From Chiloscyllium plagiosum (Eukaryota), in NCBI RefSeq assembly GCF_004010195.1, contig NC_057719.1, positions 16,042,515 to 16,106,514 on the forward strand: a stretch of 64,000 nt of DNA, read 5' to 3'. Made by a program: the position numbers and the translations under genes. The notes below the pieces were generated by a model. That model was not told the origin of the DNA. It ran no database searches and saw only the letters and a list, made by a program, of their open reading frames with translations. This document shows positions 1-61,010 of this stretch, one piece after another (position 1 is the first letter of the stretch; every line of letters starts with the position of its first letter).

Positions 1-301
1 TTACATTTGATGTTAACACATTCCGAGCATGTAAGAGACTTAAATATACACTCTGGTTAGTTGTAGGTTAGATTAGTAGATAGTTGAGTTTTGTCTGTTT
101 GTTTTTTTTTGTTGTTTTTTTTCTTTTGGGTTTTTTTTTTGTTGTTGTTTTGTTTTGTTTTGTTTTTTTTTGTTGTCAAATTTTGGCTATTGTATATTTG
201 AGCTAATTGTATATCAATGTTTATATCTGAGAGTTTTGTTTATTTTTGTAAACTTGTAAAAATGTTAAATTTCTAATAAAAATATCTATAAAAAAAAAAA
301 A
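1..301 (+). mobile_element. 3' end of an L1-like LINE (T-rich 3' UTR, polyA signal, polyA tail)
   Basis: T-rich tract, AATAAA at 275-280, A-run at 290-301. No coding part lies in the window. Confidence 0.5.
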
Positions 302-1315
302 GACCCCAGATGTAGAAAAAAGGTTCTAATGAGGAAAACCCTAATTATAATCTAAACAGTAAGGAATTGTTTAACTCTGCACAGACCCTTTAAAAATTTG
401 ATATCAAATCAAGATTAGCTAACTAGCCTGAATCAAATGTCAAATCAAACACCTTGCCATCTGTAGGGTCAGAGTATTTATCCATTATTTAATGAGAGTG
501 TGCCGCCAGGTTGATATCTATGGCCATGTGTTTAAAACACCATTCATTCTTTTCAGATGCTTATTTTGTTTTTGTGATAATACATTCAAGATCATTGCAA
601 GGTCAAAGTCAGAAAACAATAGTGACATAGTTTAAAATAAAGTTGATAAAAAATGCAAAAAACCTTCATATAAAGCATATCTAATAAACTTTGATGTAAA
701 ACTGGTGATAACTTTGTGTAATGTTGCTTTTCAGTTCCACCAAAGGCTACAGTGAATCCTGCTTGAGTAAGATCAGCAGGTGATGTCAATAGTGAACTTT
801 CATATCTCACTGTAAAATGCTGTTTCCTCCCTGCAAACTCAATAAAATGTACCTAAGGTAATGTCCTTATTTAAATCTTGTACAATGCGTCATTGCTCAA
901 TGCAGTGAGTCAACGAAGGATATGTGTTTGATGTCATTGCAGTCAACACCATTGCCATCTAGTGCTCTTCTTTAGATAATTAAACTCACTCTGCTGAAAA
1001 ACATTGTTGAGAATGAATTAAAATCTGCTGATATTGTTCCTGAATTGATCCACCCTCAGTCTAATTTGAACTCAAACCTAAAGAGATCAATGTTAGAAGG
1101 GATAAAAACCACTGCAGAGAGAATGAAAGGCTCCAGTAAGACTTTCGCAGGCAGAGGGATAAGGTTCCACCTCATCTGAAAATGTTGGATGGGTCAGATT
1201 CCACTGATGAACCCTTCATATTTCTTGAACTAAATGGTGCACGATGGTATCATGTAAGGTTTGGTCTTCTACCATCTGCTACAGACAGTATGTCATGACA
1301 GGACATGATTTGGAG

Positions 1316-11495: not shown

Positions 11496-12502
11496 CTGGT
11501 TTAATGATTCCTTCACTTTCCAGCCTTCTGATTTCTGCCTCTACTTTTGCCCATAAGGCATATGGCATTTGGCAGGTCCTGCAGAATCATGGAATTGCTT
11601 CCTGGTCAACATGCGAGGTGGCCTTGGCTCATATGATAGTTCTTTGACATTACTGTAAAACGTCTGGGTATTTAAATAGGGCTTCACTCAGGCAGCCATT
11701 TTATAATCAAAAAATGTTGACCCAATTCAGAAGAATCTTTCTCAACCAATATCGCCCCATCAAAATTGGGATAAGCCTTTCAGTACAATGACTGGTAAAT
11801 GGGCCTAATTGCCTGGTTCCACACTGTAGAGATTCAATGATCCTATGATTCAATGGTGTAGGTTTTCAGTCTAGCTGAGGTCTTATGCCAACTTTATTGA
11901 AAAAATGTTATTGAAAACTGGTTCTGTCTGACACGGCCGCACCAGTATCGACCTCCATTCTAACCAGGTGACCATTTAACCAGATGATTATTTTGATTGG
12001 TTCTGATTTGGATGTTGCTAAGCAATTTAATGTCATAACCCAGATGCAGGTGGACTTTCTAAGACGTGAGCTATCCTGGATACCGGCCTATGAGCTCTTT
12101 TACTCTCTTTAGATCCAGTAGGATCCATTTGCTGTCTTGAATCCGCATGCTGGGCTTGCCTGCCCAGATCCTGAAGAAAATTTTAACTGTTTGATCGTGA
12201 CTTGGCTTTGTTTTGGGATTTTGCTGTGGGCCAACCTAGAGTCCCTCCAATCAGGAAATGCCTTAATTGAGTCTATGCAATCGGTGTTTTCCAGCTCAGT
12301 CAGACTGGCAAGACTGTCCACTTCCAACGGAATGCCCTGTAACTCATGTGCTCCACTTACCACGTTCTCCAATAATAAAGCAAGCTGTAATGCCTGTTTG
12401 AAGTCCAGTTGGGCTAACGAGTAGGCGTTTTGCATGGTTATGTCATTAATCCCATATATCAGCCAGTCTCTAAGCATCTCATTAAGGGATAAGCCAAAGT
12501 CG

Positions 12503-12951
12503 TGCCTGCCCCTCTTCCGCGGTTATGTTAGAGCCCGGGTGTCCTTGGAGAAGGAGCACGCGGTGTCGACCAACACCCTGGAGTTGTTCAGGAAGAGGTG
12601 GGCGCCGCAGGGAGTGGAGTGCATCATTTCTCCCTCCAATTCTATTTTGATTTTGTCCCTACCCTCCCCTTCACTGTTTTGATCACACAGCACTGCCCTT
12701 TGATGTGAAGGGCAGTGTTTGTCACTGGCCACCCGGGTGTTTTTCTATCTTCCTGGTGGTGGAAATTGAATAAAGATTGGTGCACTTTGTGTCTTTCACT
12801 GTGTCTCACACCTGCACACACACACCATGGGTGCTGGGGATAAAATAAGCACTACCGCACTTAGGTGGTAGTGTGGGGGTTAAAAAAGAAAGGGGAAAGG
12901 AAAAAAAAAAAAAAAATCCCCCCCCCGTCTCACTAGAAAAAAGAAAAAAAA
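12503..12951 (+). mobile_element. Short Tx1-clade LINE 3' copy with TSD and short 3' transduction
   Basis: ORF2 C-terminus CLPLFRGYVRARVSLEKEHAVST...; 3' UTR; two A-tails separated by TCCCCCCCCCGTCTCACTAG; TSD AAGCCAAAGTCG at 12491-12502 and 12952-12963. Confidence 0.9.
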
Positions 12952-13416
12952 AAGCCAAAGTCGCACATGCCTCTGCCAGTCGTCTTAACCCAGTCATAAA
13001 TCCCGACACTGATTTCCCAATCCTTGAACTGCCGAGTAAAACAACAGTGTCTCAGAATTAAAGGAGGCTTAGGGTTGGAATATTCTTTAACTAAATCTGT
13101 CAAGTTTTGAAAGGTGCTCATTGCTTGTCATCTGCACTAATTCATTTGCCCAGACAAAATAGTGCATTCTTCCCACATACTGGGCCCAATCTTCAATGGC
13201 AAGGTTGAATGAGTTAAGCTTCCTGAATAGTAGCATGATGCAAGAAATGCTTACCCCAACTCAAAGGCAAATGTTGCAAGCGAGTTTCTTCTGGAACATG
13301 CTTTACTCTTGTTGCCACTGAAATGACTCCACAGAAGCCAGTATCCCATCACCAAGCCACCATTTATTTTCACTTGTAAAGTTCTTGACTCTGGCACAGC
13401 CTCTTCAGAGTCAGAA

Positions 13417-13730
13417 TCTTAGAGTCCTTACCGAGTGGAAACATGCCCTTCGGCCCAACAAGCCCACACTGACCCTCCGAAGAGTATCCCACCCAAACCC
13501 ATTTCCCAACTTTTACCCCTGACTAATTCACCTAACCTACACATCTCTGAACACCACGGGCAATTTAGCATGGCCAATTCACCTAACCTGCACATCTTTG
13601 AATTGTGGGAGGAAACCCACACAGACATGGGAAAATGTGCAAACTCCAAACAGACAGTTGCCTGAGGCTGGAATCGAACCTGAGTCCCTGGCACTGTGAG
13701 GCAGCAGTGCTAACCACTGAGCCACCGTGC
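13417..13730 (-). mobile_element. HE1-type SINE in the Gypsy 5' LTR
   Basis: A and B boxes plus core; TSD AGTCAGAA at 13409-13416 and 13731-13738. Confidence 0.9.
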
Positions 13731-13769
13731 AGTCAGAACCCCAGAGTATCAGAATCTCTGACACTTCTC

Positions 13770-14188
13770 TTTTTTTTTTCCTTTTTCATTTTTTCTTCTT
13801 TTTTAATTTAACCCCCACACTACCACCTAAGTGCGGTAGTGCTTATTTTTTCCCCCAGCACCCATGGTGTGTGTGTGCAGGTGTGAGACACAGTGAAAGA
13901 CACAAAGTGCACGAATCTTTATTCAAATTCCACCACCAGAAAGATAGGAAAATACCCGGGTGTCCAGTGACAAACACTGCCCTTCACATCAAAGGGCAGT
14001 GCTGTGTGATCAAAACAGTGAAGGGGAGGGTAGGGACTAAATCAAAATAGAGTTGGAGGGGGAAATAATGCACTCCACTCCCTGCGGCGCCCACCTTTCC
14101 CTGAACAACTCCAGGGTGTTGGTCGACACCGCGTGCTCCTTCTCCAAGGACACCCGGGCTCTAACGTAACCGCGGAAGAGGGGCAGGC
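13770..14188 (-). mobile_element. Short Tx1 3' copy A in the Gypsy LTR
   Basis: Homologous to 12503-12900; flanked by GACACTTCTC at 13760-13769 and 14189-14198. Confidence 0.9.
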
Positions 14189-14198
14189 GACACTTCTC

Positions 14199-14704
14199 TT
14201 TTTTTTTTTCGGCCCTAATGACCCTCTCCACGGCTCGCTGCCTGGACCTTCTCCTGTTTATATTTTTTTTCTCCTGTTTATATTTTTTTTTTCTCCTGTT
14301 TATTTTTTATTTTTATTTTTTTCTTTCAGTTTCCACCACCAGGAAGATAGGAAAACACCCGGGTGGCCTGCTCCTGTTTATTTATTTATTTATTTATTTT
14401 TCCTCTTTTTAATAATTTAACCCCCACACTACCACCTAAGTGCGGTAGTTCTCCTGTTTATATTTTTTTTTTCTCTCTTTTTCTTTTTTTTTATAATTTA
14501 ACCCCCACACTACCACCTAAGTGCAGTAGTACAGTGGAGGGGAGGGTAGGGACTAAATCAAAATAGAATTGGAGGGAGAAATGATGCACTCCACTCCCTG
14601 CGGCGCCCACCTCTCCCTGAACAACTCCAGGGTGTTGGTCGACACCGCGTGCTCCTTCTCCAAGGACACCCGGGCTCTAACGTAACCGCGGAAGAGGGGC
14701 AGGC
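14199..14704 (-). mobile_element. Short Tx1 3' copy B with composite tail array
   Basis: Same 5' end as copy A, internal UTR deletion near 14530, flanked by GACACTTCTC (14189-14198, 14705-14714); the tail holds five CTCCTGTTTA repeats. Confidence 0.88.
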
Positions 14705-14802
14705 GACACTTCTCTTTTTATCTGGTCAGCCAGGACTCCTTATTGGACCAGATTAACAGCCCCAGTCAGGGAACTCAGTTAAAAAACCATGGATATCCAG
14801 CT

Positions 14803-19200: not shown

Positions 19201-22200
19201 TTTTTTTTTGACCCTCCTGTTTGTTTTTTTTTCTCCTTTTCCCCACACTACCACCTAACCGCGGTAGTGCTTATATTTCCCCCAGCCCCCATGTTGTGTG
19301 TGTGCAGGTGTGAGACACAGTGAGAGACACAAGGTGTATGAATCATTATTCGGTTTCCACCACCAGGAAGAAAGGAAACACCCGAGTGGCCAGTGACAAG
19401 CACTGCCCTTCACAAAAGGGCAATGCTGTGTGATCAAACAGTGAAGGAGGGCAGGGATTAAATCAAAATAGAATTGGAAGGGGCCAGTTTATGGCCAGGC
19501 CCAAGAGCAGACCCATGAGGAGGTCTTCAGACCTGCCCTCCCTCCTCTGTACCGGGTGCCCGACGATCAGGAGCATGGGACTGAAGTGCAACTAAAAGCA
19601 GAGGAGATTTTTAAGAAAATCAAAAGGGAGTGCAAACGCCCACACCCAATATATACGTGGTCCACGGACTCCACAGAACAAGCAGTTGGGCTGGGAGTCC
19701 GTGAACTACCACAATCTGCGGTTGCAGGGGACCGCTACATGCAGCACCTTCCACCCCAGATCCCTGAGAGAAAGGGGGAGGACTCCCACGTAGAGAGCCC
19801 TCCACTGGGGATCCCCACCGCCCGGTGGCAAATGGACCCACCGAGGCGTGTCCGGTTGGTGGATGAGGGACAAGCGGTGGATGGTGTGCAGCAGCAGTCT
19901 ATACAGGGCCCACTTTATGTCCATAAAAAGGGACAAAATTAAAATTCCGGAGGCAGCTCAGGTTGTGGGGCACAGGCTCCCGTGGAAAGTACAGGACCTT
20001 GGGGCCAATGTGAAATTCCGTGCGGGCTGGGGTGAGTGCGGACAGGATCCCACCGCACACCCAAGCATCCAACTGGTGCACTACGTCGGGTCCGAGCACC
20101 GCCGTTTTAAGGTGTTGGATGGTGGTGGCCACGCTGCGGCAGCGTCCAGCCCAGGCCCCCGGCACCCAGCACGTCCCCGACCCTGGCCCCCCCCGCCGCC
20201 ACGGCCCTCCCCCCCGACAGCCACTCGAACCCGCGAGTACGGAGGTGCGGATTCCTGAGCAACGGCTCCCTGACGACAGCCGCTACTCCAGCCGGAGGGT
20301 AGGCGCGACGCGATTCGACCATGTTCCAGACAGTGATCAGGTCCTGGTAAAAGACAGGCAGCGTCTTGACGACGACCTCCAAACGGTCGACGAACAGGAG
20401 CTGCGTGTCGTAGTTGAGGTTACGCACCTGGCAGAAAAAATACGTCGCCAGGGCGCACCACCTAGGAGGAGGCTCGACGTAAAGGTATCGCCGCAAGGTC
20501 TGAAGGCGGAACGTCGCGACCTGGGTGCGGGCGCACACCAGCGACTGACCGCCCTCCTCAATAGGGAGACTCAGAGCCTGCGCGGCGACCCAGTGCATCT
20601 TTTTGTCCCATCGACCAACGTTCTCTGGATGTCAGCGACAAAGCCAGGAGGAGGGACCAAAGTGACCAGCCGGTACCACAGCATGGCGCCCACCAGCTGG
20701 TTTATAACCAGCACTGACACTCTGCGGCGGCGTACAAAAGTCGGATCCGGGCGACGAACTGCGCCCCGAACCCGAATGCCCGCAGAGTCCCGAGCAGGTA
20801 CTCGTGATCGACCCTGTCGGACGCCTTCTCCTGGTCGAGAGACAGGAAGGCGCTCGGCAGACCAGCCCGTCGACAGAAATGGATCAGGTCCCGGACCAGG
20901 TGGACGTTATCGTGTATCCTCCGGCCCGGGACCGTGTAGGACTGGTCCGGGTGGATCATGTGGGCCAGCACGGAGGCCAGGCGAGAGGACAACACCCTGG
21001 CGAAGATTTTGTAATCCGTGCCGAGGAGGGAGACCGGACGCCAGTTCTTTAAGGAACGAAGGTCCCCCTTCTTTGGCAGCAGGATGATGACCGCCCTGTG
21101 CCAAGAAAGGGGCAGCAGTCCGGCATTTAGGCACTCCCCCAGGACCTGTGCGTAGTCGCTCCCCAGGACGTCCCAGAACGCCCTGAAGAACTCCACAGTC
21201 AGCCCGTCCAGCCCCGGGGTTTTGCCCCTCGAGAGCCGGTCGAGGGCGCCGGTCAGCTCCTCCAAAGTGACGGGAGCGTCGAGCCTTCCGGCGTCCTCCG
21301 GGCTGAGCTGCGGCAGGTCCTCCCACAGAACTCTGCGAGCATCCTCGCTGGACGGATCCGGAGAGAACAGGGCTGTGTAATAGTTTCGGACGTGGGCCCT
21401 GACGCCCTCCGGGTCCGAGACGAGGGACCCGTCGTCGGCCAGCAGCACAAGGAGCTGCTGGCGGGTGCCACGCCTTTTTTCCAGCGAGTAGAAGAAGGGG
21501 GAGCCGCGGTCCAGGTCCTGGAGGAGCTGGATCCGCGGCCTCACGTACGCGCCCCGAGCCCCGACGAGCTGCAGGTCCCGGAGCGCGGCCTTCTTCTCTT
21601 CGTACGCCCCGCGCAGGGCCGGGTCCGCGTCGGGCTGACCGAGGCGTGAATCCAGGTCGAGCATCTCCCTCTCCAACTCCCCGATCCTGGATTTCCGCCT
21701 CTTCGTCGACCCCCTCGCGTACTCCTGACAGAAGACGCGGACGTGAGCCTTGCCCATGTCCCACCATAGCCTCAGGGAGGGGAAGCTTCCCCCCTTCCTT
21801 CTCCAGCTGGCCCAGAAACGACGAAACGAGTCCCGGAACCGCTCGTCCTCCAGCAGCAGGTTGTTAAAGTGCCAGTACGCGGAGCCGAGCCTGGCGCCGA
21901 ACAGGAGTTCCATCCACACCAGGTGGTGGTCCGTGCAGGACACCTGCCACGTGGAGGCCTTCGGAAAACAGGAGGCGTACGCCCGCGAAATGTACAGGCG
22001 GTCGATTCTGGACGCTCCGACCCCAGGCCTCACGAAGGTGAAGGCGATGGAGTCGGGATGGAGATTCCGCCAGACGTCCACCAGGTCGAAGGACTTGACC
22101 AAGTCCCCCAACCTCTTCCCCGACGCCCAGTCAGTGCGGGCACCGCCGTGGTCCCTGCCCTCGAGGACACAGTTAAAATCTCCCGAGGATGACGCACTGG

Positions 22201-24195
22201 TTCTTGTCAATGGAGGCGAGATGAGCGGACACTTCTTCAAAGAAGCTCGCTTGCCTCGGCCCGGCCAGGGGAGCATAGACTTTCACCAAGTGAAGCACCG
22301 CGCCCCCCAGCCGAACCGTCAGGTGAAGCAAACGGCCTGGCACTGGCTCCCTGACCCCCAAGATCTCCGGCTGAAAATGCAGGGCCAACAAGATAGCCAC
22401 CCCGCCAGATCTGCGGGTGAGGTGACTCATGTAAACTCCCCCTCGCCACTCCAGGAGCCAGGTGGCTTCGTCTCCCGGGGTAGTGTGGGTTTCTTGCAGG
22501 AAGCACACCGCATACCACCCGTCCCGAAGGACCGAGAGGGTCTGGAATCTGCGCTGTTACTCCTTGCTGCCATTGATGTTGAGGCAGGCTATAGTTGTCT
22601 CCATGTCAGAAGCGTTGTGCAACCACCACCAGTACAGTTAAAAACCTATATACATATTTACAGGGAGGACAAGGGAGGGGCACAGATGTCCCTCGCCCTC
22701 ACCAGGAGCGCCCCCAGGAAGTTCCTGACTCGCTTTCGCTCATTGACATCGAGCCCAGGCGCCTGGTGAGCAGCGTGGGCCGAACAGTAAACTCTCTCGA
22801 AGGAGCTCCAGCGGTCGAGCGCCAGTTGGGCTCTATCACGGCGACTCCGAGTTTTCTCGACAAACTCCTAGAGTTCCTCGAGGGGGATGGGGGGAGATCA
22901 GTGGGCGGCACCTGGGATTCAAAAATGTCACTGCAGACAGAGTCCACGTCGTCCCTGGTGTCCACCACCGATCCCGAACCCTCCTCAAGGAGGTCGCCCT
23001 CGGTCACCGACCCCTCCCCCACCAAGAGGATGGGTGCTGGTCCGGCGCCGCCAACCGGCCTCAAACCCCCGGCGACCCCACCCCCAGGGTCACCGGCGGT
23101 ACCTTCCTCGGTGCACCCCTTCCCGGAACACCCCGAGTTCAGCTCATCGGGCAGCAGAGGCTCGGGGCCCCGCTCCTCTCCCGACACCGGGACGCCCGGC
23201 TCCTCAGGAAAAATGTCCTCCCCCAGGTCCAGGGCCCCCGGGAAAACAGTCTGGGAGGGAGGAGCGAAGATAACGCCTTCCGCCCCTCCGCCACTCGACG
23301 ACCCAGCAGAGGGTCCTCCGTTGTTGCCGACACCATGGCCCGTGTGGTTATTAAAGTCCTCCCCAGGGGCCGGAGGAGTTGAGGCAGCAGGAGGCCCTGC
23401 TGTAGCCCCTGGGGGTTTGGGTAGGTCGGGCCACGGTGCCGGACAATGAAGAGGCATCATTAGCTCATCCGCTGAAGAGGGGCAGCACCACGAGCGCGCT
23501 GCTGGAGTATCTCTCCCCTCCAAGGGCCAGTGCCTCTTTCCCAGAGGGACAGGGGGGAATTTATGGGCCTTCCCCTCCCCGCCCGCCTTGGTGGTCATGG
23601 GGCCCGAGGTCCCTCCCCCCAGCCTTTCCCGGAATACGATTGGCTGGGGGAAGACAGGGGGCGTGGCCAGGGTGGGGAGGGTCAGGTGTGTCACTTCCTG
23701 CCCCGCCCCTGGTTTATCAGGTGATGGCGGGCGGGGCAGGGGCCCAGTTCCCTCTCTGGGGCCCAGAGACACGGTCGCTGGAGGAGGTAGGGCAGCGGTG
23801 GTTCCCCCCAGGTTAGTGCTAGGGTGCGGCTGGGTGGGATGGGACGGGACGGGACGGGGCGGGGCGGGGCGGAGCTCAGGGGTCCCCGGGCCAGGCGTTG
23901 CTCTATCGGGGTGGGTGTGGGGTCAGTGGGGCCGGGGTCAGTGCGGCCAGGATCAGGTATGGGTTTCGGGGTCAGGGTTCCCGCGCCAGGGCGACGCTGG
24001 CACAGCCGCAGGGGCATTGTCGTGCCGGGGTGGGGTAGGTCGTGGGCTAGGTGTCGGGGAAGGGAATAGGGTGGTCTCCCCGTGGGCGGGCCTGACATGC
24101 CGCGCCTTCTGGCCAGCCGGACGCTCACCCCCCTCCCTGCCAGAGGCTGGAGCATTGGAAGCCTCCGGTGCCGGGGCTTGTGGTGTTGACTTTGG
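19201..24195 (-). mobile_element. Long Tx1-clade LINE (ORF1 3' part, APE-RT ORF2, 3' UTR), defective
   Basis: ORF2 ATG at 22604 (METTIACLNING), CFLQETH, GDFNCVL, SRIDRLY, TDHH, KTPGLDGL, KNWRPVSLLGTDYKI, SLDQEKA; C-terminal Cys/His region near 19700-19620. Contains an early stop, frameshifts and deletions. The 5' end falls in the gap. Confidence 0.93.
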
Positions 24196-24619
24196 NNNNN
24201 NNNNNNNNNNNNNNNNNNNNNNNNNNNNNNNNNNNNNNNNNNNNNNNNNNNNNNNNNNNNNNNNNNNNNNNNNNNNNNNNNNNNNNNNNNNNNNNNNNNN
24301 NNNNNNNNNNNNNNNNNNNNNNNNNNNNNNNNNNNNNNNNNNNNNNNNNNNNNNNNNNNNNNNNNNNNNNNNNNNNNNNNNNNNNNNNNNNNNNNNNNNN
24401 NNNNNNNNNNNNNNNNNNNNNNNNNNNNNNNNNNNNNNNNNNNNNNNNNNNNNNNNNNNNNNNNNNNNNNNNNNNNNNNNNNNNNNNNNNNNNNNNNNNN
24501 NNNNNNNNNNNNNNNNNNNNNNNNNNNNNNNNNNNNNNNNNNNNNNNNNNNNNNNNNNNNNNNNNNNNNNNNNNNNNNNNNNNNNNNNNNNNNNNNNNNN
24601 NNNNNNNNNNNNNNNNNNN
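24196..24619. other. Assembly gap
   Basis: Run of N. Confidence 1.
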
Positions 24620-24915
24620 GTGAGCCTTGCCCACGTCCCACCATAGCCTCAGGGAGGGGAAGCTTCCCCGCTTCCTTCTCCAGCCGGCCCAGAAACAACG
24701 AAACGAGTCCCGGAACCGCTCGTCCTCCAGCAGCAGGTTGTTAAAGTGCCAGTACGCGGAGCCGAGCCTGGCGCCGAACAGGAGTTCCATCCACACCAGG
24801 TGATGGTCCGTGCAGGACACCTGCCACGTGGAGGCCTTCGGAAAACAGGAGGCGTACGCCCGCGAAATGTACAGGCGGTCGATTCTGGACGCTCCGACCC
24901 CAGGCCTCACGAAGG
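24620..24915 (-). mobile_element. Second Tx1 ORF2 segment, 5'-truncated
   Basis: Matches 21743-22038 with about 5 substitutions. Confidence 0.9.
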
Positions 24916-25294
24916 CAGTGGAAGTGGGCCTTCAGCAGTAACAGTGGTGGAGGTCCTGGGGAGGGGCCCAAGGCGAGTCTCAGGCAGCGGTGGTGGAGGC
25001 AGGCCTCAGCATTGGAGGCAGGCCTCAGGGAGTCCTAGGCAGGCCCTTGATTGCAGCGGTGGGGGCAGACCTGTTGGGGAGGGTCCCCCAGGCAGCCCCA
25101 AAATTTAATCCCAGGCAGCAGCAGTGGAGGTGGGCCTCTAACAACAGCGGCAGTGGTGGAGGTCCTAGGAGGGGCCCCAAGGCAAGTCCCAAGCAGCAAC
25201 AGCTGAGGCAGGTCTGGGTGGGGTCCCAGAGACCAGCAGTGAGCAATAACCTGCTCACTGACACTCAGTTTGGGTTCTCCCAGTGTCACACAGC

Positions 25295-31621: not shown

Positions 31622-31968
31622 AGGAGAAAGTGAGGTCTGCAGATGCTGGAGATCAGAGCTGAAAATTTCATTTCCCCTCCTCCCACCTTGTCTCAGTCAA
31701 ATCCATCGAACTCAGCACCGCCTTCCTAACCTGCAATCTTCTTCCCGACCTCTCCGCCCCCACCCCAGTCTGGCCTATCACCCTCACCTTGACCTCTTTC
31801 CACCTATCACATTTCCGACGCCCCTCCCCCAAGTCCCTCCTCCCTACCTTTTATCTTAGCCTGCTGGACAAACTTTCCTCATTCCTGAAGAAGGGTTTAT
31901 GCCCGAAACGTCGATTCTCCTGTTCCCTGGATGCTGCCTGACCTGCTGCGCTTTTCCAGCAACACATT
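31622..31968 (+). mobile_element. PLE (Neptune-type) 3' UTR/pLTR with inverted terminal piece
   Basis: C-rich UTR homologous to 33578-33836; 31622-31667 is the antisense of the family 3' terminus. Confidence 0.8.
31881..31916 (+). ncRNA. Minimal type-I hammerhead ribozyme motif
   Basis: ATTC-CTGAAGA-A-GGGT-TTAT-GCCC-GAAACGTC-GATT. Confidence 0.75.
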
Positions 31969-33437
31969 CCAATCCAGTGAGGGAAGTTGGAAGATTTAAG
32001 CTGCTATCTTTTTGACGAGAGCCTACTAAGTGAAGGCCTGTCTGTCCTCTAATGTAGACATAGAAGAGCCAATGGCACTATTTTTAATAAGAGTTATAGA
32101 TACATAGAAAACACAGTAAGATTTCATGCACAGAAGGTAGTCGTCTGGCACATTATGTCCATACCAGTCGATGAATACCTCGTCACACTAATCCCACTCT
32201 CCAAATTTTGATTCCTAAACCCATTGACTGTTCCACCGCATGTTTTAATGTGATTATGGTTTTTGCCTGTATTACCCTTTGAACTCGTGGGTTCCAGAAC
32301 CTCACCACTGATGAGAAAGTTGTTCCAGGTGTCATAGTCAATATTTTTTCAATAATTAGTACAGCATTTCTTTTTGTGGGAGCTTGCTACATGTAAATTG
32401 CCTGCTATGTGTCAACACTGACTGTACTTCCAAAGTACTTTATTGGCTGTAAAGCATTTTGGATCTTTCTGTGGCCATAACAGTTACTATATAAATGCAA
32501 TTTAATTTTAATAACTCAATAGTTACTCATAGAAATCTAATGTTATATCACTGGGATGCTTTTTTGCCATTATTATGGCAATAATGTTTTTTTCAAATTT
32601 AAAAAAAAGTTATGATATTTCAGCTACTTTAATCCCATGTGTATCACTGATGATTTGTATTTACTCTGTGGAAATTTTAATTGAGTAGAAGATTTTACTG
32701 CATTTTACTTTCTGATTTGCTGTTTGAGAATACTTCAGTGTAATTGGCTGCCAACTCCCTGCGGTGATATCACTGTTACTGTATGCCTAGTGTTTGTCTT
32801 GATCTTGCACATATCAAGAAAGGGAAACTTCATGCCTCAGAGATCACTAGATAGCAGAAAATCCCTTTAATACTTCAAAGTACTCTTTTGGTATGATCCT
32901 AGATATTGAATATTGTTAGATATTATTACTGGAGCGAATCATAGATTTACATTTAAATAGTTCCCATTTCTGTCTTTGTTCACTCCTTTCCTCAGCAATA
33001 TTTTGTGTTTGATTTTGTCTACTTTCTGTGGTTTTATTTACCCTAATGAAGAAGAGCATATCTTCTCAACATCACAACTATTGATCTCACCCTGCTTGGC
33101 TGTTGTATGGAACCCCCTACGTGTTAACCCCTTAAAGCCAAATACATAACAATATTGTCAAATTTGATGGAATTTTAATGCATTTACTTTAGGGGAAATT
33201 TGGCATGTTAATATGCTGCAGTTTTTCTTATCTGCGATGTTTTGTGTTATGTTGCTGAAAATATTACTGATGAAATACTTAGCAGTTGTAGTAAAATCAT
33301 GCGTATACTTAGGATGAAGAAGATTATGAGTACCACATATGCTTGGTCCAGTTCTTGTTGGATTCATTTGGATATCAAAGTTGAAACTTTATTGCTGGAA
33401 CAGCACAGCAGGTCAGGCAGCATCCAGGGAACAGGAG

Positions 33438-33473
33438 ATTCGACGTTTCGGGCACAGGCCCTTCTTCAGGAAT
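33438..33473 (-). ncRNA. Intact minimal type-I hammerhead ribozyme motif
   Basis: ATTC-CTGAAGA-A-GGGC-CTGT-GCCC-GAAACGTC-GAAT on the minus strand. Confidence 0.82.
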
Positions 33474-33740
33474 GAGCAGAGAGTGTTCAGCAGGAGAAGA
33501 TAAAAGGTAGGGAGGAGGGACTTGGAGGAGGGGAGTTGGAAGTGGAGGAGATGCGGTGGAGGGCACCGTCGACCACGTCGCCTTCCTGACCTGCAGTCTT
33601 CTTGTTGACCTCTCCGCCTCCATCCTACTCCGACCTATCACCCTCACCTTGACCTCTTTCCACCTATCACATTTCCAACTCCCCTCCTCCAAGTCCCTCC
33701 TCCCTACCTTTTATCTTCTCCTGCTGAACACTCTCTGCTC

Positions 33741-33776
33741 ATTCCTGAAGAAGGGCCTGTGCCCGAAACGTCGAAT
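33741..33776 (+). ncRNA. Intact minimal type-I hammerhead ribozyme motif
   Basis: ATTC-CTGAAGA-A-GGGC-CTGT-GCCC-GAAACGTC-GAAT: helix I ATTC/GAAT, helix II GGGC/GCCC. Confidence 0.82.
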
Positions 33777-34148
33777 CTCCTGTTCCCTGGATGCTGCCTG
33801 ACCTGCTGTGCTGTTCCAGCAATAAAGTTTCAACTTAATAAATACAGCAAAGAATATTGTTTGAAAGGTTATCAGTGTTAAATAAAATGTGGGGTTCGGA
33901 GCAAGAATAGTATACGGTTGGGAATAGGATATCAGGCAGATTAGATGACATTGGAAATGACCCCAGAACTAGTGCCTTGTAGAAGATCAATACTGACTAT
34001 TGCTGAGGGAGTAAATGTAGTCTCTAAGTAGCTTCCGTTGGTGGGAGGCAGGAAAAGAAAAGGATTTTTGAAGTTATCGCCAAATCCTCTAAGAATTTGA
34101 AAGCTTCCCTCCTGCAGCAATCCTATAGGTACACATTTGTGTGCACTA

Positions 34149-42730: not shown

Positions 42731-42950
42731 AAAAGCAAATTACTGTGGATGCTGGAATCTGAAACCAAAAGAGAAAATGCTGGAAAATCTCAGCAACTCT
42801 GGGAGCATCCATTAGGAGAGAAAAGAGCTGACGTGTCAAATCTAACTGACCTTTTGTCAAAGGGTCAGTTAGACTCGAAACGTCAACTCTTTTCTCTCCT
42901 TACAGTAGCTGCCAGACTTGCTGAGATTTTCCAGCATTTTCTTTTTTGGT
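42731..42950. mobile_element. Fold-back PLE-derived repeat nested in an old minus-strand CR1
   Basis: Imperfect palindrome 42764-42950 centred on TGACCTTTTGTCAAAGGGTCA. Confidence 0.75.
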
Positions 42951-55419: not shown

Positions 55420-55619
55420 TATGCTCCAATCAAAGGTCAGGGTTTGAAATACAAAATATCAACAAACTTAAATAATGCTGAAAACAAAAGCATAGTTTGC
55501 CAAAACTTTTCTTTTTTGTTCATCGAACTGGTACATTGGCCATGATAACACCTCTACCAATCAAAATCCATTTGCCAACCAATCAGCAATCACTTCTTAA
55601 CAGATTATACAATGTCAGG

Positions 55620-56024
55620 ACTGGCCATTAACAGGTCCAGGCAGCGGCCCGTGGAGGGGGTTGTTAGGGCCAACTGCCTGCCCCTCTTCCCCGTTTACAT
55701 TAGGGCCCGGGTGTCCTTGGAGAAGGAGCACGCGGATTCCACCAACACCCTGGAGTTGTTCAGGGAGAGGTGGGCGCCACAGGGAGTGGAGTGCATTATT
55801 TCCCCTGCCAACTCTATTTTGATTTAATCCCTGCCCTCCCCTTCACTGTTTGATCACACAGCATTGCCCTTTGTGAAGGGCACTGCTTGTCACTGGCCAC
55901 TCGGGTGTTTTCCTATCTTCCTGGTGGTGGAAATTGAATAAAGATTCGTACACCTTGTGTCTCTCACTGTGTCTCACACCTGCACACAGACAACATGGGT
56001 GTTGGGGGATAAATGAAAAAAAAA
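55620..56024 (+). mobile_element. 5'-truncated Tx1 3' copy
   Basis: LAINRSRQRPVEGVVRANCLPLF...; TSD ATACAATGTCAGG at 55607-55619 and 56025-56037. Confidence 0.9.
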
Positions 56025-56868
56025 ATACAATGTCAGGTTCTCTTTACTTTGGTATTCTTTCAAATCATCTTGACAAACACAAGATGAATAGGCTTCAGCA
56101 AAAATTGTATCTTTTTCCAGTAATACTCAATTGTTGTACTAACTACAGCCAAGTGTATACCCACAAACATCAAAACAGACACTTTGGTGACACTCCCAGA
56201 TGAGTTAAACAAGTCGGTTGAAAATTTCATCTTTTGCTTAAATCAGCTTCAATGTATCACTGGGTCCCAACTAAATATACAATTCATAGTTACATTAAGG
56301 TTGCCAAATTGATAAGGCCATGCTTAAGTACCATGTCCTTCTCAAATCACTGGATTAAAAATAAGATAATAAAGCCATTGGAGAGGAGGCAGAAAAGACT
56401 TACAAAGCTGAAACCAGAAAGCAATGCTATAGACTTAAGAAGATTTTTTAAATTATTAAAGGTTTTGTTTGAGTGGATACAGAAAAAAAGGGGTAGAGTT
56501 TCGTGGAGGAGACAGGTGGGTCAACGCAAATGCCACCTTGATAAGGCCCCAGCCACCACAGTCATGCTTGGGTGTGTGGAAGCAAGATGGACTGGGGTCC
56601 ATCACCTCCAGACGCAGGTCTGAAGCACCAACAGATGTGGGTGGATAGTCAAGCCAGCTGAAATGCCCAATTCAGTTTACTAGGATATCAGAACAGGTTT
56701 ATTAATGTCAGACCCTCATGAACAATTGATATGGTGCTTACATGTAGCTAACACCATGGGAAATACCCAGAACAGAACATGGAGCTCTAAATCTTCTTTA
56801 TTGTTCTGATAAAGTTCTTTAAAACTGTCGGTCAGCAGTGAAGGCCTTTGGAGGTAGCTGATAAATTT

Positions 56869-59883: not shown

Positions 59884-61010
59884 GCACGGTAGCACAGTGG
59901 TTAGCACTGCTGCCTCACAGTGCTAGAGACCCGGGTTCAATTCCCGCCTCAGGTGACTGACTGTGTCTGTGTGGGTTTCCTCCGGGTGCTCCGGTTTCCT
60001 CCCACAGTCCAAAGATGTGCAGGTCAGGTGAATTGGCCTTGCTAAATTGCCTGTAGTGTTAGGTTAGGGGTATGGGTGGGTTGCGCTTCGGTGAGTCGGG
60101 TTGGGCTGAAGGGCCTGTTTCCACACTATAAGTAATCTAAATTGTGCTCCTTGTTCTTTTTAATCTCATTTTTTAGTCCTCTGATCATCTACTTTGTAGT
60201 AACTTTGGGGAAAGGGTTTACCGTTTTTTTACTTTCTATCATGTGATTGAGTGACAAATGCTTAAAGGATCACTAACATTTTATAATTCACTGTAAGGGT
60301 TCCGATCGGGGTTAAAGGGCTCCTGAATGGGAAAATAAACAGCTGATTCAGAAAGACAAATGTCTGCGTGGGTTTGCTCCGGGTGCTCTGGTTTCCTCCC
60401 ACAGTCCAAAGATGTGCAGGTCAGGTGAATTGGCTATACTAAATTGCCCGTAGTGTTAGGTTAGGGGTATGGGTGGGTTGAGCTTCGGTGAGTCGGGTTG
60501 GGCTGAAGGGCCTGTTTCAAACACTGTAAGTAATCTAAATTGTGCTCCTTGTTCTTTTTAATCTCATTTTTTAGTCCTCTGATCATCTACTTTGTAGTAA
60601 CTTTGGGGAAAGGGTTTACCGTTTTTTTACTTTCTATCATGTGATTGAGTGACAAATGCTTAAAGGATCACTAACATTTTATAATTCACTGTAAGGGTTC
60701 CGATCGGGGTTAAAGGGCTCCTGAATGGGAAAATAAACAGCTGATTCAGAAAGACAAATGTCTGCGTGGGTTTGTTCTGGGTGCTCTGGTTTCCTCCCAC
60801 AGTGCAAAAATATGCAGGTTAGGTGGATTGGCCAAGCTAAATTGCCCCATAGTATCCAGGGATGTGCAGGTTAGATGGATTAGCCGATGGAAATGCAAAA
60901 TTACAGGGAGAGGGTAGGGGGTTGGGTCTGGGTGGGATGATCTTCGTAAGGATCATTGTGGACCTGATGGGCTGAATGGCCTGCTTCCACACTAGGAATT
61001 TTATGATTCT
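59884..61010 (+). repeat. Three HE1 SINE pieces with an intervening tandem duplication (59964-60360, 60361-60758)
   Basis: Near-identical 397-bp and 398-bp units, each made of a SINE 3' part plus unique spacer. Confidence 0.92.

What the first reader, a model, noticed from the sequence alone, without database searches (positions are those of the whole stretch)
12503..14704. Three independent short Tx1 copies share one 5' end, and a polyadenylated fragment stops just upstream of it
Seen: the copies at 12503(+), 14188(-) and 14704(-) all begin at (T)GCCTGCCCCTCTTCC within 1 nt, yet differ by substitutions and indels. The spacer at 14250-14210 reads ...GAGAGGGTCATTAGGGCCGA followed by polyA. The longer copy at 55620 shows this is the sequence immediately 5' of that start (GTTAGGGCCAAC-TGCCTGCCCC). 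Random 5' truncation does not predict this. Inference: there is a defined cleavage or processing site in the Tx1 RNA (small-RNA-guided slicing, nuclease or ribozyme) with both products retrotransposed, or a discrete non-autonomous derivative of about 400 nt. I could not fit an HDV-like or hammerhead fold by eye.
Basis: partly seen in the sequence, partly recalled or inferred. Interest (0 to 1): 0.75.

Follow-up and report, generated by a model that had tools for sequence, protein, structure and literature searches.

The report
Tx1 truncation hotspot and stacked copies
Broken copies of a frog-Tx1-type jumping gene start at one exact base in dozens of unlinked places, likely because its RNA breaks at a bulge in a predicted long hairpin, but two of the three copies flagged here sit at one insertion site and likely share their start because a new copy borrows its neighbour's.

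Summary
The letters are as described, but the three copies are not independent. 14188 and 14704 are units of one stack that repeats one target duplication three times; only 12503 is separate. The 'upstream product' is the cut-short head of a module that runs through the site at three other loci. The 5' end is still a real hotspot: 7 of 91 genome-order copies start at -2..0 against 0.7 expected (P about 1e-5), and 39 distinct junctions start at the U of GAC|UGCC. It takes about 4-8% of copies and is one of several peaks; one control position was only about 3-fold lower. The site follows an unpaired GAC bulge in a predicted 170-nt hairpin (z = -7). No ribozyme, ping-pong or 1U signature was found. 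In stacks, same-start units come from different donors yet match near the junction (0.11 versus 0.29 diagnostic differences, 65 loci), which points to joining by homology to the resident copy. Stacking at a target in another element is known for Tx1. An RNA break as cause is inferred (about 40%) and untested.

The parts
12491..12502 (+). Left target-site duplication of the separate copy (right copy at 12952-12963)
   Evidence: blunt join, the T at 12503 is not in the 3' flank
12503..12879 (+). Tx1 3' end, element -1..377 (end of ORF2 plus 3' UTR); starts at the hotspot base
   Evidence: 95% to a natural reference copy
12880..12963 (+). A-rich tail with a short non-A insert, then right target duplication
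14705..14778 (-). Host repeat upstream of the stack: worn copy of an LTR-like element with CCAAT and TATA-like boxes; ends in duplication copy 1 (14714-14705)
14502..14704 (-). Stack unit A: element 0..173 joined to 349..377
14325..14501 (-). Imported module: A-tract, foreign duplication, 349..377, A-tract, foreign duplication, 223..266
   Evidence: same chain at L308, L309, L310 on other contigs, 89-94%
14209..14324 (-).
   Evidence: same head at L316, L317, L318 runs on to +233..+372
14189..14208 (-). A-tract and duplication copy 2 (14198-14189)
13812..14188 (-). Stack unit B: element 0..377, different haplotype from unit A beyond +90
13733..13811 (-). A-rich tail, duplication copy 3 (13769-13760) and downstream remnant of the host repeat
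55607..56037 (+). Separate copy, element -56..344 (55620-56014), own 13-bp duplication; reads through the site (T of -1 at 55675)
19241..22604 (-). Long copy of the same family: ORF2 with endonuclease and RT regions, broken by frameshifts; an internal deletion (-50 to +131) removes the site
   Evidence: 42-56% identity to Xenopus Tx1 ORF2, residues 1-1212 in five pieces

Best explanation
These are 5'-truncated copies of a Tx1-clade LINE whose ends pile up at the U of GAC|UGCC, likely because the element's RNA breaks at an unpaired bulge in a predicted 170-nt hairpin, while the two minus-strand copies are units of one stack and likely share their start because a new cDNA is joined by pairing with the copy already there. 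Shown: Tx1 identity, the one-base hotspot at many unrelated target sites, the shared duplication, different donors within a stack, the identity gradient away from the junction, and modules shared between unlinked stacks. Predicted: the hairpin and bulge. Inferred: (1) a single-strand break at the bulge leaves a 379-nt polyadenylated 3' piece that is copied to its end; (2) each insertion regenerates the target, so later insertions land at the same site; (3) their cDNA pairs with or copies the resident unit's first tens of bases and so takes its start; (4) read-through RNA carries pieces of old stacks, foreign duplications included, to new sites.
For: Identity: 56% over 94% of a 458-aa RT stretch to Xenopus Tx1 ORF2; RVT_1 above cutoff, zf-RVT below it. 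Hotspot: 8 of the first 100 of 1740 exact matches start at -2..0; 7 of 91 after collapsing, 0.73 expected, P 1e-5. 67 of 72 genome-wide non-element flanks have T at -1; 39 distinct junctions; 9 of 19 resolvable flank joins are blunt, 8 of them at -1 with a T absent from the target. Microhomology at the site 5 of 14, near chance; elsewhere 28 of 56, above chance. Hairpin -111 kcal/mol, z -7.0; in 78 copies pairing is 0.05, 0.03, 0.23 at -4..-2, 0.57 at -1 and 0.89-0.97 at 0..3. 5' ends lean to unpaired positions, rho -0.15, P 0.001. Stacks: 34 of 140 loci repeat a junction; diagnostic differences 0.11 (CI 0.06-0.17) at 5-30 nt, 0.17, then 0.285 (0.24-0.33) beyond 80 nt in 65 loci, against a flat 0.36/0.34/0.32 for different-start neighbours. 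Shared modules.
Against: No RNA end was observed. The microhomology difference between site and other ends is not significant (Fisher P 0.38). A same-method control at +30/31 gave 28 of 2351 (1.2%) against about 69 of 1740 (4%), only about 3-fold, with patterns of unequal sensitivity. +179 is a comparable peak (116 of 4359; 4 of 83) and is not at a 3'-arm bulge. The second sample gave only 2 of 42 at -1, one shared with the first. -1 copies are 44 of 48 one subfamily against 80 of 128 for nearby ends (P 8e-5), although the letters at the site are the same; a plain structural break does not predict that. No fragment ends at -2. No compensatory pair changes were seen in the hairpin, which lies in coding sequence. 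The order of units in the stacks rests on a gapped assembly.
Confidence: 0.42

Rival explanations
1. The RNA is intact; the reverse transcriptase stalls or lets go at -1, on leaving the 0..14 helix and meeting the next stem, and the cDNA is joined there.
For: Same hairpin. Smaller peaks at -5/-6 and +90 sit just 3' of predicted stems. Inversions and deletions at hairpins occur (L032). No matching 5' partner is needed.
Against: Pairing just upstream of 5' ends is negatively, not positively, related to end counts (rho -0.11). Joins at the site show no excess microhomology (small n). The subfamily skew is not explained either.
Confidence: 0.25
2. A few source loci make the peak: either short transcripts that start at -1 from the host promoter, or read-through RNAs whose internal duplication|-1 junction pairs with the similar new target and is inherited.
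For: Strong subfamily skew. -1 and +179 are the commonest junctions shared between unlinked stacks; 7 of 30 +179 loci share one foreign junction. L172 keeps a remnant of a donor duplication before -1. Six loci join the target at -19/-20, where a TATA-set start would fall near -1/0.
Against: All four 28/64 haplotypes occur in flank-joined -1 copies (11, 7, 6, 2). 11 of 33 first units lie outside the host repeat. First-unit starts do not favour other shared-module positions (7 of 106 versus shifted mean 4.0, max 10). Pol II usually starts on a purine (own knowledge) and the end is U. No clear lag-17/18 echo (r 0.15 and 0.01).
Confidence: 0.2
3. Programmed cutting at the site: piRNA-guided slicing or a self-cleaving ribozyme, with both products inserted.
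For: One-base sharpness, a U start, and a subfamily (time) restriction that a host guide RNA could give. A-tailed fragments ending at -3..-1 are perhaps 2-3-fold over background (8 versus 1-4).
Against: No ribozyme family at E<=1 in four loci. A CUGAAGA at -96 has no GAAA partner, and the cut is neither NUH| nor |GUC. The tenth base from -1 is C, not A. Blunt joins elsewhere start with T in 4 of 28. The window's fragment is an imported, shortened module. A cut in ORF2 would destroy the template.
Confidence: 0.08
4. The stacks and their gradient are assembly chimeras of short reads through a young repeat.
For: 101,977 contigs; N runs interrupt many stacks. The gradient's scale is close to a read length.
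Against: All 8 shared-module comparisons between unlinked loci differ by 1-7 substitutions. 19 of 43 loci have same-start units that differ at 2 or more diagnostic sites within 90 nt of the junction. Contigs of a separate run show A-tract plus duplication joints (table 5c). Single-unit -1 insertions with clean duplications do not depend on stack assembly.
Confidence: 0.05

Closest known systems
Tx1L of Xenopus laevis (YTX2_XENLA, P0006)
   Same: ORF2 56% identical over an RT stretch; targets another mobile element (Tx1D; PMC4494074, passages).
   Different: The host here is an LTR-like repeat and only about 38% of first-unit flanks (85 of 224) match it. No truncation hotspot is mentioned in the passages read.
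Crocodilian Tx1-Mar with SINEU-3; Tx1-8_Crp and Tx1-4_AMi (Kojima 2015, PMC4494074, passages)
   Same: Tandem insertions that sandwich a target duplication, read as sequential insertions; two families prefer LTR retrotransposons.
   Different: Those tandems are of SINE copies. Here randomly truncated LINE ends repeat one locus-specific start with different donors and carry foreign duplications.
Drosophila R1 and R2 5' joining (PMC2718515, passages)
   Same: cDNA that carries target-like sequence anneals to the top strand and gives precise 5' junctions; ancestral R1 makes 14-bp duplications.
   Different: There the homology comes from co-transcribed 28S sequence on full-length RNA; here it would come from a resident truncated copy.
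Human L1 two-template insertions (PMC11702581, preprint, passages) and L1 3' transduction (recalled)
   Same: Same-orientation pieces from different RNAs in one insertion; tail-flank-tail chains.
   Different: Rare for L1 (nine cases reported in the passage); here 87 of 140 loci hold a unit behind an A-tract.

Membership tests
Tx1 clade non-LTR retrotransposon | ORF2 with RT closest to Tx1-type proteins | tested here: met
   RVT_1; best named hit Xenopus Tx1 ORF2, 56%, E 1e-145. No tree built.
Tx1 clade non-LTR retrotransposon | N-terminal APE-type endonuclease region | tested here: met
   window 22604-22182 matches residues 1-141 of P0006 (which carries PF03372) at 51%; not scanned against Pfam itself
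Tx1 clade non-LTR retrotransposon | A-rich tail and target-site duplication | tested here: met
   65 junctions, duplications mostly 13-19 bp
Tx1 clade non-LTR retrotransposon | Target preference (Kojima's criterion: over 20% of flanks) | tested here: met
   85 of 224 first-unit flanks match the host repeat; sample includes loci chosen by junction patterns
Host as solo LTR | TG...CA ends with a 4-6 bp duplication; CCAAT, TATA, AATAAA | tested here: inconclusive
   ends and a 5-bp duplication readable in 2 of 4 loci (one with a mismatch); internal region not examined
Self-cleaving ribozyme (hammerhead, hairpin, HDV-like) | Conserved core around the cut | tested here: not met
   no Rfam ribozyme hit; no GAAA; cut context C|UGC. 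HDV fold judged by eye only.
Self-cleaving ribozyme (hammerhead, hairpin, HDV-like) | Self-cleavage in vitro | not testable with these tools
   bench assay
piRNA ping-pong slicing site | A at position 10 of the 3' product; 1U bias of ends | tested here: not met
   +8 is C; 4 of 28 other blunt ends start with T
piRNA ping-pong slicing site | Antisense small RNA with 10-nt 5' overlap | not testable with these tools
   no small-RNA raw reads offered
Discrete non-autonomous derivative (SINE-like) | One founder haplotype with fixed ends and own promoter | tested here: not met
   four haplotypes at 28/64, 3 of 48 from the other subfamily; no separate head sequence, the copy is pure LINE 3' end

The most novel reading that the evidence does not exclude
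A structured hairpin inside Tx1 ORF2 is cut at one base by a host nuclease or guide RNA that acted on one subfamily, and the 379-nt polyadenylated 3' piece is a retrotransposition substrate in its own right. The genome would then hold a fossil degradome of germline anti-LINE cutting, amplified by stacks that hand each 5' junction on to later insertions.
Probability: 0.2. Interest if true: 0.75.

Novelty: new variant of a known kind. Interest (0 to 1): 0.45.

Why it matters
Why LINE copies are 5'-truncated (RNA damage, enzyme fall-off or repair) is still argued. A one-base hotspot beside a predicted bulge, in about 40 independent junctions, is a place where the three can be told apart by 5'-end sequencing and one mutation. 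The stacks give population-scale evidence that a new cDNA can be joined through homology with a resident copy. They also warn that shared 5' ends among neighbouring copies are not independent events.

Tried and rejected
Rfam at E<=1 on 4 loci: only sub-threshold microRNA and one viral UTR model, none a ribozyme. RNA reads: 1771 reads of one single-cell polyA run laid on a natural copy; mostly one strand, tails at the 3' end, no start pile-up, but depth was 43-64 at the site in a 3'-weighted library, so this is no test of 5' ends; the sister run laid 0 reads. No listed holder is on record as RNA. The window's stack was not checked against independent reads, so its unit order rests on the assembly. 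Non-templated T as source of the -1 base: rejected, extra T is rare at other joins. Microhomology as cause of the -1 peak: rejected for the blunt joins. Start site set by the host TATA box: no clear lag echo, few candidate donors. General inheritance of module junctions at new sites: not above shifted controls. Hairpin covariation: none among 80 copies. Ribosome-linked decay 17 nt before the stop and a 190-nt periodicity: considered by hand, no fit. Atlas look-up gave only generic RT clusters. A first regex for host-repeat ends found nothing. Literature searches (listings and abstract starts) showed no paper on a Tx1 truncation hotspot or on same-start stacks; most subscription papers, Repbase reports and all supplements were not seen.

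Full report
Setting. The window lies in a 3.56-Gb assembly of 101,977 contigs; 'shark-type' is recalled and echoed by earlier notes, not tested. Positions are given relative to the G of GCCTGCCCC (0), using two natural copies as rulers (L021 and L107). ORF2 stops at 149 and the element ends at 377.

What the element is. The repeats are 3' ends of a Tx1-clade LINE. A 458-aa RT stretch from a long copy is 56% identical over 94% of its length to Xenopus Tx1 ORF2 and hits RVT_1; a C-terminal stretch hits zf-RVT below its cutoff. The window holds a long broken copy whose ORF2 (22604-19544, minus) matches residues 1-1212 of that protein in five pieces at 42-56%. Insertions end in A-tracts and mostly carry 13-19 bp duplications. 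85 of 224 first-unit flanks match one host repeat with CCAAT and TATA-like boxes; where both ends were in view, 2 of 4 loci showed TG...CA ends with a 5-bp duplication, so it is probably a solo LTR.

The observation. The three starts and the spacer are as described. But GAGAAGTGTC stands before 14704, before 14188 and after the last tail, so these two are units of one stack in a worn host copy. Only 12503 is separate. The stack reads: duplication, 0..173 joined to 349..377, tail, foreign duplication, 349..377, tail, foreign duplication, 223..266, three tail-plus-duplication repeats, -43..-3, tail, local duplication, 0..377, tail, local duplication. The middle is imported. The 349..377 plus 223..266 chain recurs at three other loci, and the head that starts at -43 recurs at three others, where it runs through the site to +233..+372. 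The spacer is thus a shortened piece of a shared module, not the partner of unit B.

Is the 5' end a hotspot? Yes. Of 1740 exact matches to 0..21, 1232 continue exactly upstream, so most copies pass the site. Among the first 100 in genome order (contigs 1-2, not the window's), 8 start at -2..0. After collapsing repeats in a locus this is 7 of 91, against 20 ends in 7457 nt at risk over -110..-3 (7 loci with internal deletions or interruptions were left out of that baseline): 0.73 expected, P 1e-5. A genome-wide pattern for non-element flanks gave 72 matches, 67 with T at -1; two proved to be intact copies and one a short inverted piece. Over all loci held there are 39 distinct junctions at -1 in 50 clusters, a count inflated by that selection. 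Of 19 flank joins with both duplications readable, 9 are blunt, 8 of them at -1 with a T that is not in the target, so the U is templated. Against a special site: a second sample (93 of 100 anchors recovered, 83 after collapsing) gave 2 of 42 at -1, 4 of 83 at +179 and 7 at 124-128. Genome-wide, +179 gave 116 of 4359. A control at +30/31 gave 37 of 2351, 28 after removing 9 intact copies with a one-base slip, only about 3-fold below the site, with patterns of unequal sensitivity. The site is the strongest peak seen, at about 4-8% of copies, among several.

Is there a 5' partner? A-tailed fragments ending at -3..-1 occur at 8 loci among 2024 copies, the window included. Background rates give 1-4, and that background is probably low because loci were chosen by downstream anchors. 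Seven end at -3, one at -1, none at -2, and none of the other seven precedes a -1/0 unit. This is weak. A 5' product lacks the tail and would seldom insert, so the result does not exclude a cut.

What sets the end? Positions -130..+41 fold into one long hairpin (-111 kcal/mol, z -7.0), the lowest z of 18 windows scanned. In 78 copies GAC at -4..-2 is unpaired and the helix starts at -1/0. Across the element, ends lean weakly to unpaired bases (rho -0.15) and pairing just upstream is negatively related (rho -0.11), which suits a break in a loop better than a block at a stem. Microhomology at the site is at chance level (5 of 14) and elsewhere above it (28 of 56), but the difference is not significant. 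There is no covariation in the hairpin, no ribozyme core, no 10A and no general 1U bias. Unexplained: 44 of 48 site copies belong to one subfamily against 80 of 128 for nearby ends, though they carry all four haplotypes at positions 28 and 64. RNA reads show that the family is transcribed on one strand and tailed, but cannot test 5' ends. I put an RNA break at about 40%, an RT stop at 25%, a few source loci at 20%, guided slicing or a ribozyme under 10%.

Why stack units share a start. 87 of 140 genome-order loci hold a unit behind an A-tract and 34 repeat a junction, at starts such as -389, -292, -223, -101, 110 and 116 that differ between loci. Same-start units often carry different haplotypes, even different subfamilies. 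In 220 pairs from 65 loci, differences at family-diagnostic sites rise from 0.07 within 20 nt of the junction to 0.25-0.29 beyond 80 nt, against 0.36-0.40 between loci. Locus-weighted values are 0.11, 0.17 and 0.285 with non-overlapping outer intervals, and different-start neighbours are flat at 0.32-0.36. Plain duplication or reuse of one template predicts identity throughout; independent truncation predicts different starts. Joining by homology to the resident copy fits both facts; this step is inferred. Some pairs are true duplications (12 of 183 with no diagnostic difference). Assembly chimerism is made unlikely by 1-7 substitutions in all 8 shared-module comparisons and by 19 of 43 loci whose same-start units differ within 90 nt of the junction, but it was not excluded with reads.

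Comparison with what is known. Tx1 families that target other mobile elements, including LTRs, and tandem insertions around a duplication are in print (PMC4494074, passages). Annealing-based precise 5' joining is proposed for R1 and R2 (PMC2718515, passages), and two-template insertions are described for L1 (PMC11702581, passages). PMC3747384 (passages) added only clade context. Seven searches listed nothing on a Tx1 truncation hotspot or on same-start stacks, within the limits of the library. Earlier notes from this scan report the same target and, in one case, the same inheritance of 5' junctions; they are leads, not support.

Verdict. A new variant of a known kind. The hotspot is real but modest and its cause is untested; the window's own evidence for cleavage with both products does not hold. 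Interest 0.45.

Noticed in passing
window 19241-24200 (-) and 24620-24928: Near-full-length copy of the same Tx1 family, G+C 0.64 at 20-24 kb, next to a 424-base N gap; 21743-22038 is repeated at 24620-24915 at 98%, possibly a gap-edge artefact.
   Followed up: partly
first-unit flanks outside the host repeat (e.g. L038, L065, L067, L082; window 55575-55619): A CCAAT-like motif lies 35-44 nt before the 5' junction in 30 hits among 139 such flanks, against about 2-4 per 5-nt bin elsewhere; some may be worn host copies.
   Followed up: partly
element +179 (window 12682 region): Second sharp 5' peak, 2 nt before the 3' UTR hairpin; one foreign junction accounts for 7 of 30 loci read, yet 6 of 8 flank joins are blunt.
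   Followed up: partly
stack junctions genome-wide: An A-tract followed by the duplication often spells AATAAA, and many imported pieces are 20-45 nt long, as if cut at this accidental polyadenylation signal.
   Followed up: no
element -370..-200 and +50..+220: Two further stable folds (z -5.1 and -4.8); -389 is a recurrent start (4 distinct junctions).
   Followed up: no
L079, L085, L117, L178, L197: Very long stacks with higher-order repeats of several units, a possible route from LINE ends to satellite DNA.
   Followed up: no
window 31719-33836 and 42764-42950: Inverted repeats: 33378-33544 against 33836-33670 at 99%, and a 187-bp palindrome at 86%.
   Followed up: no
window 59964-60449 and 60361-60847: Tandem duplication of about 400 bp at 96% within a common short repeat family.
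   Followed up: no
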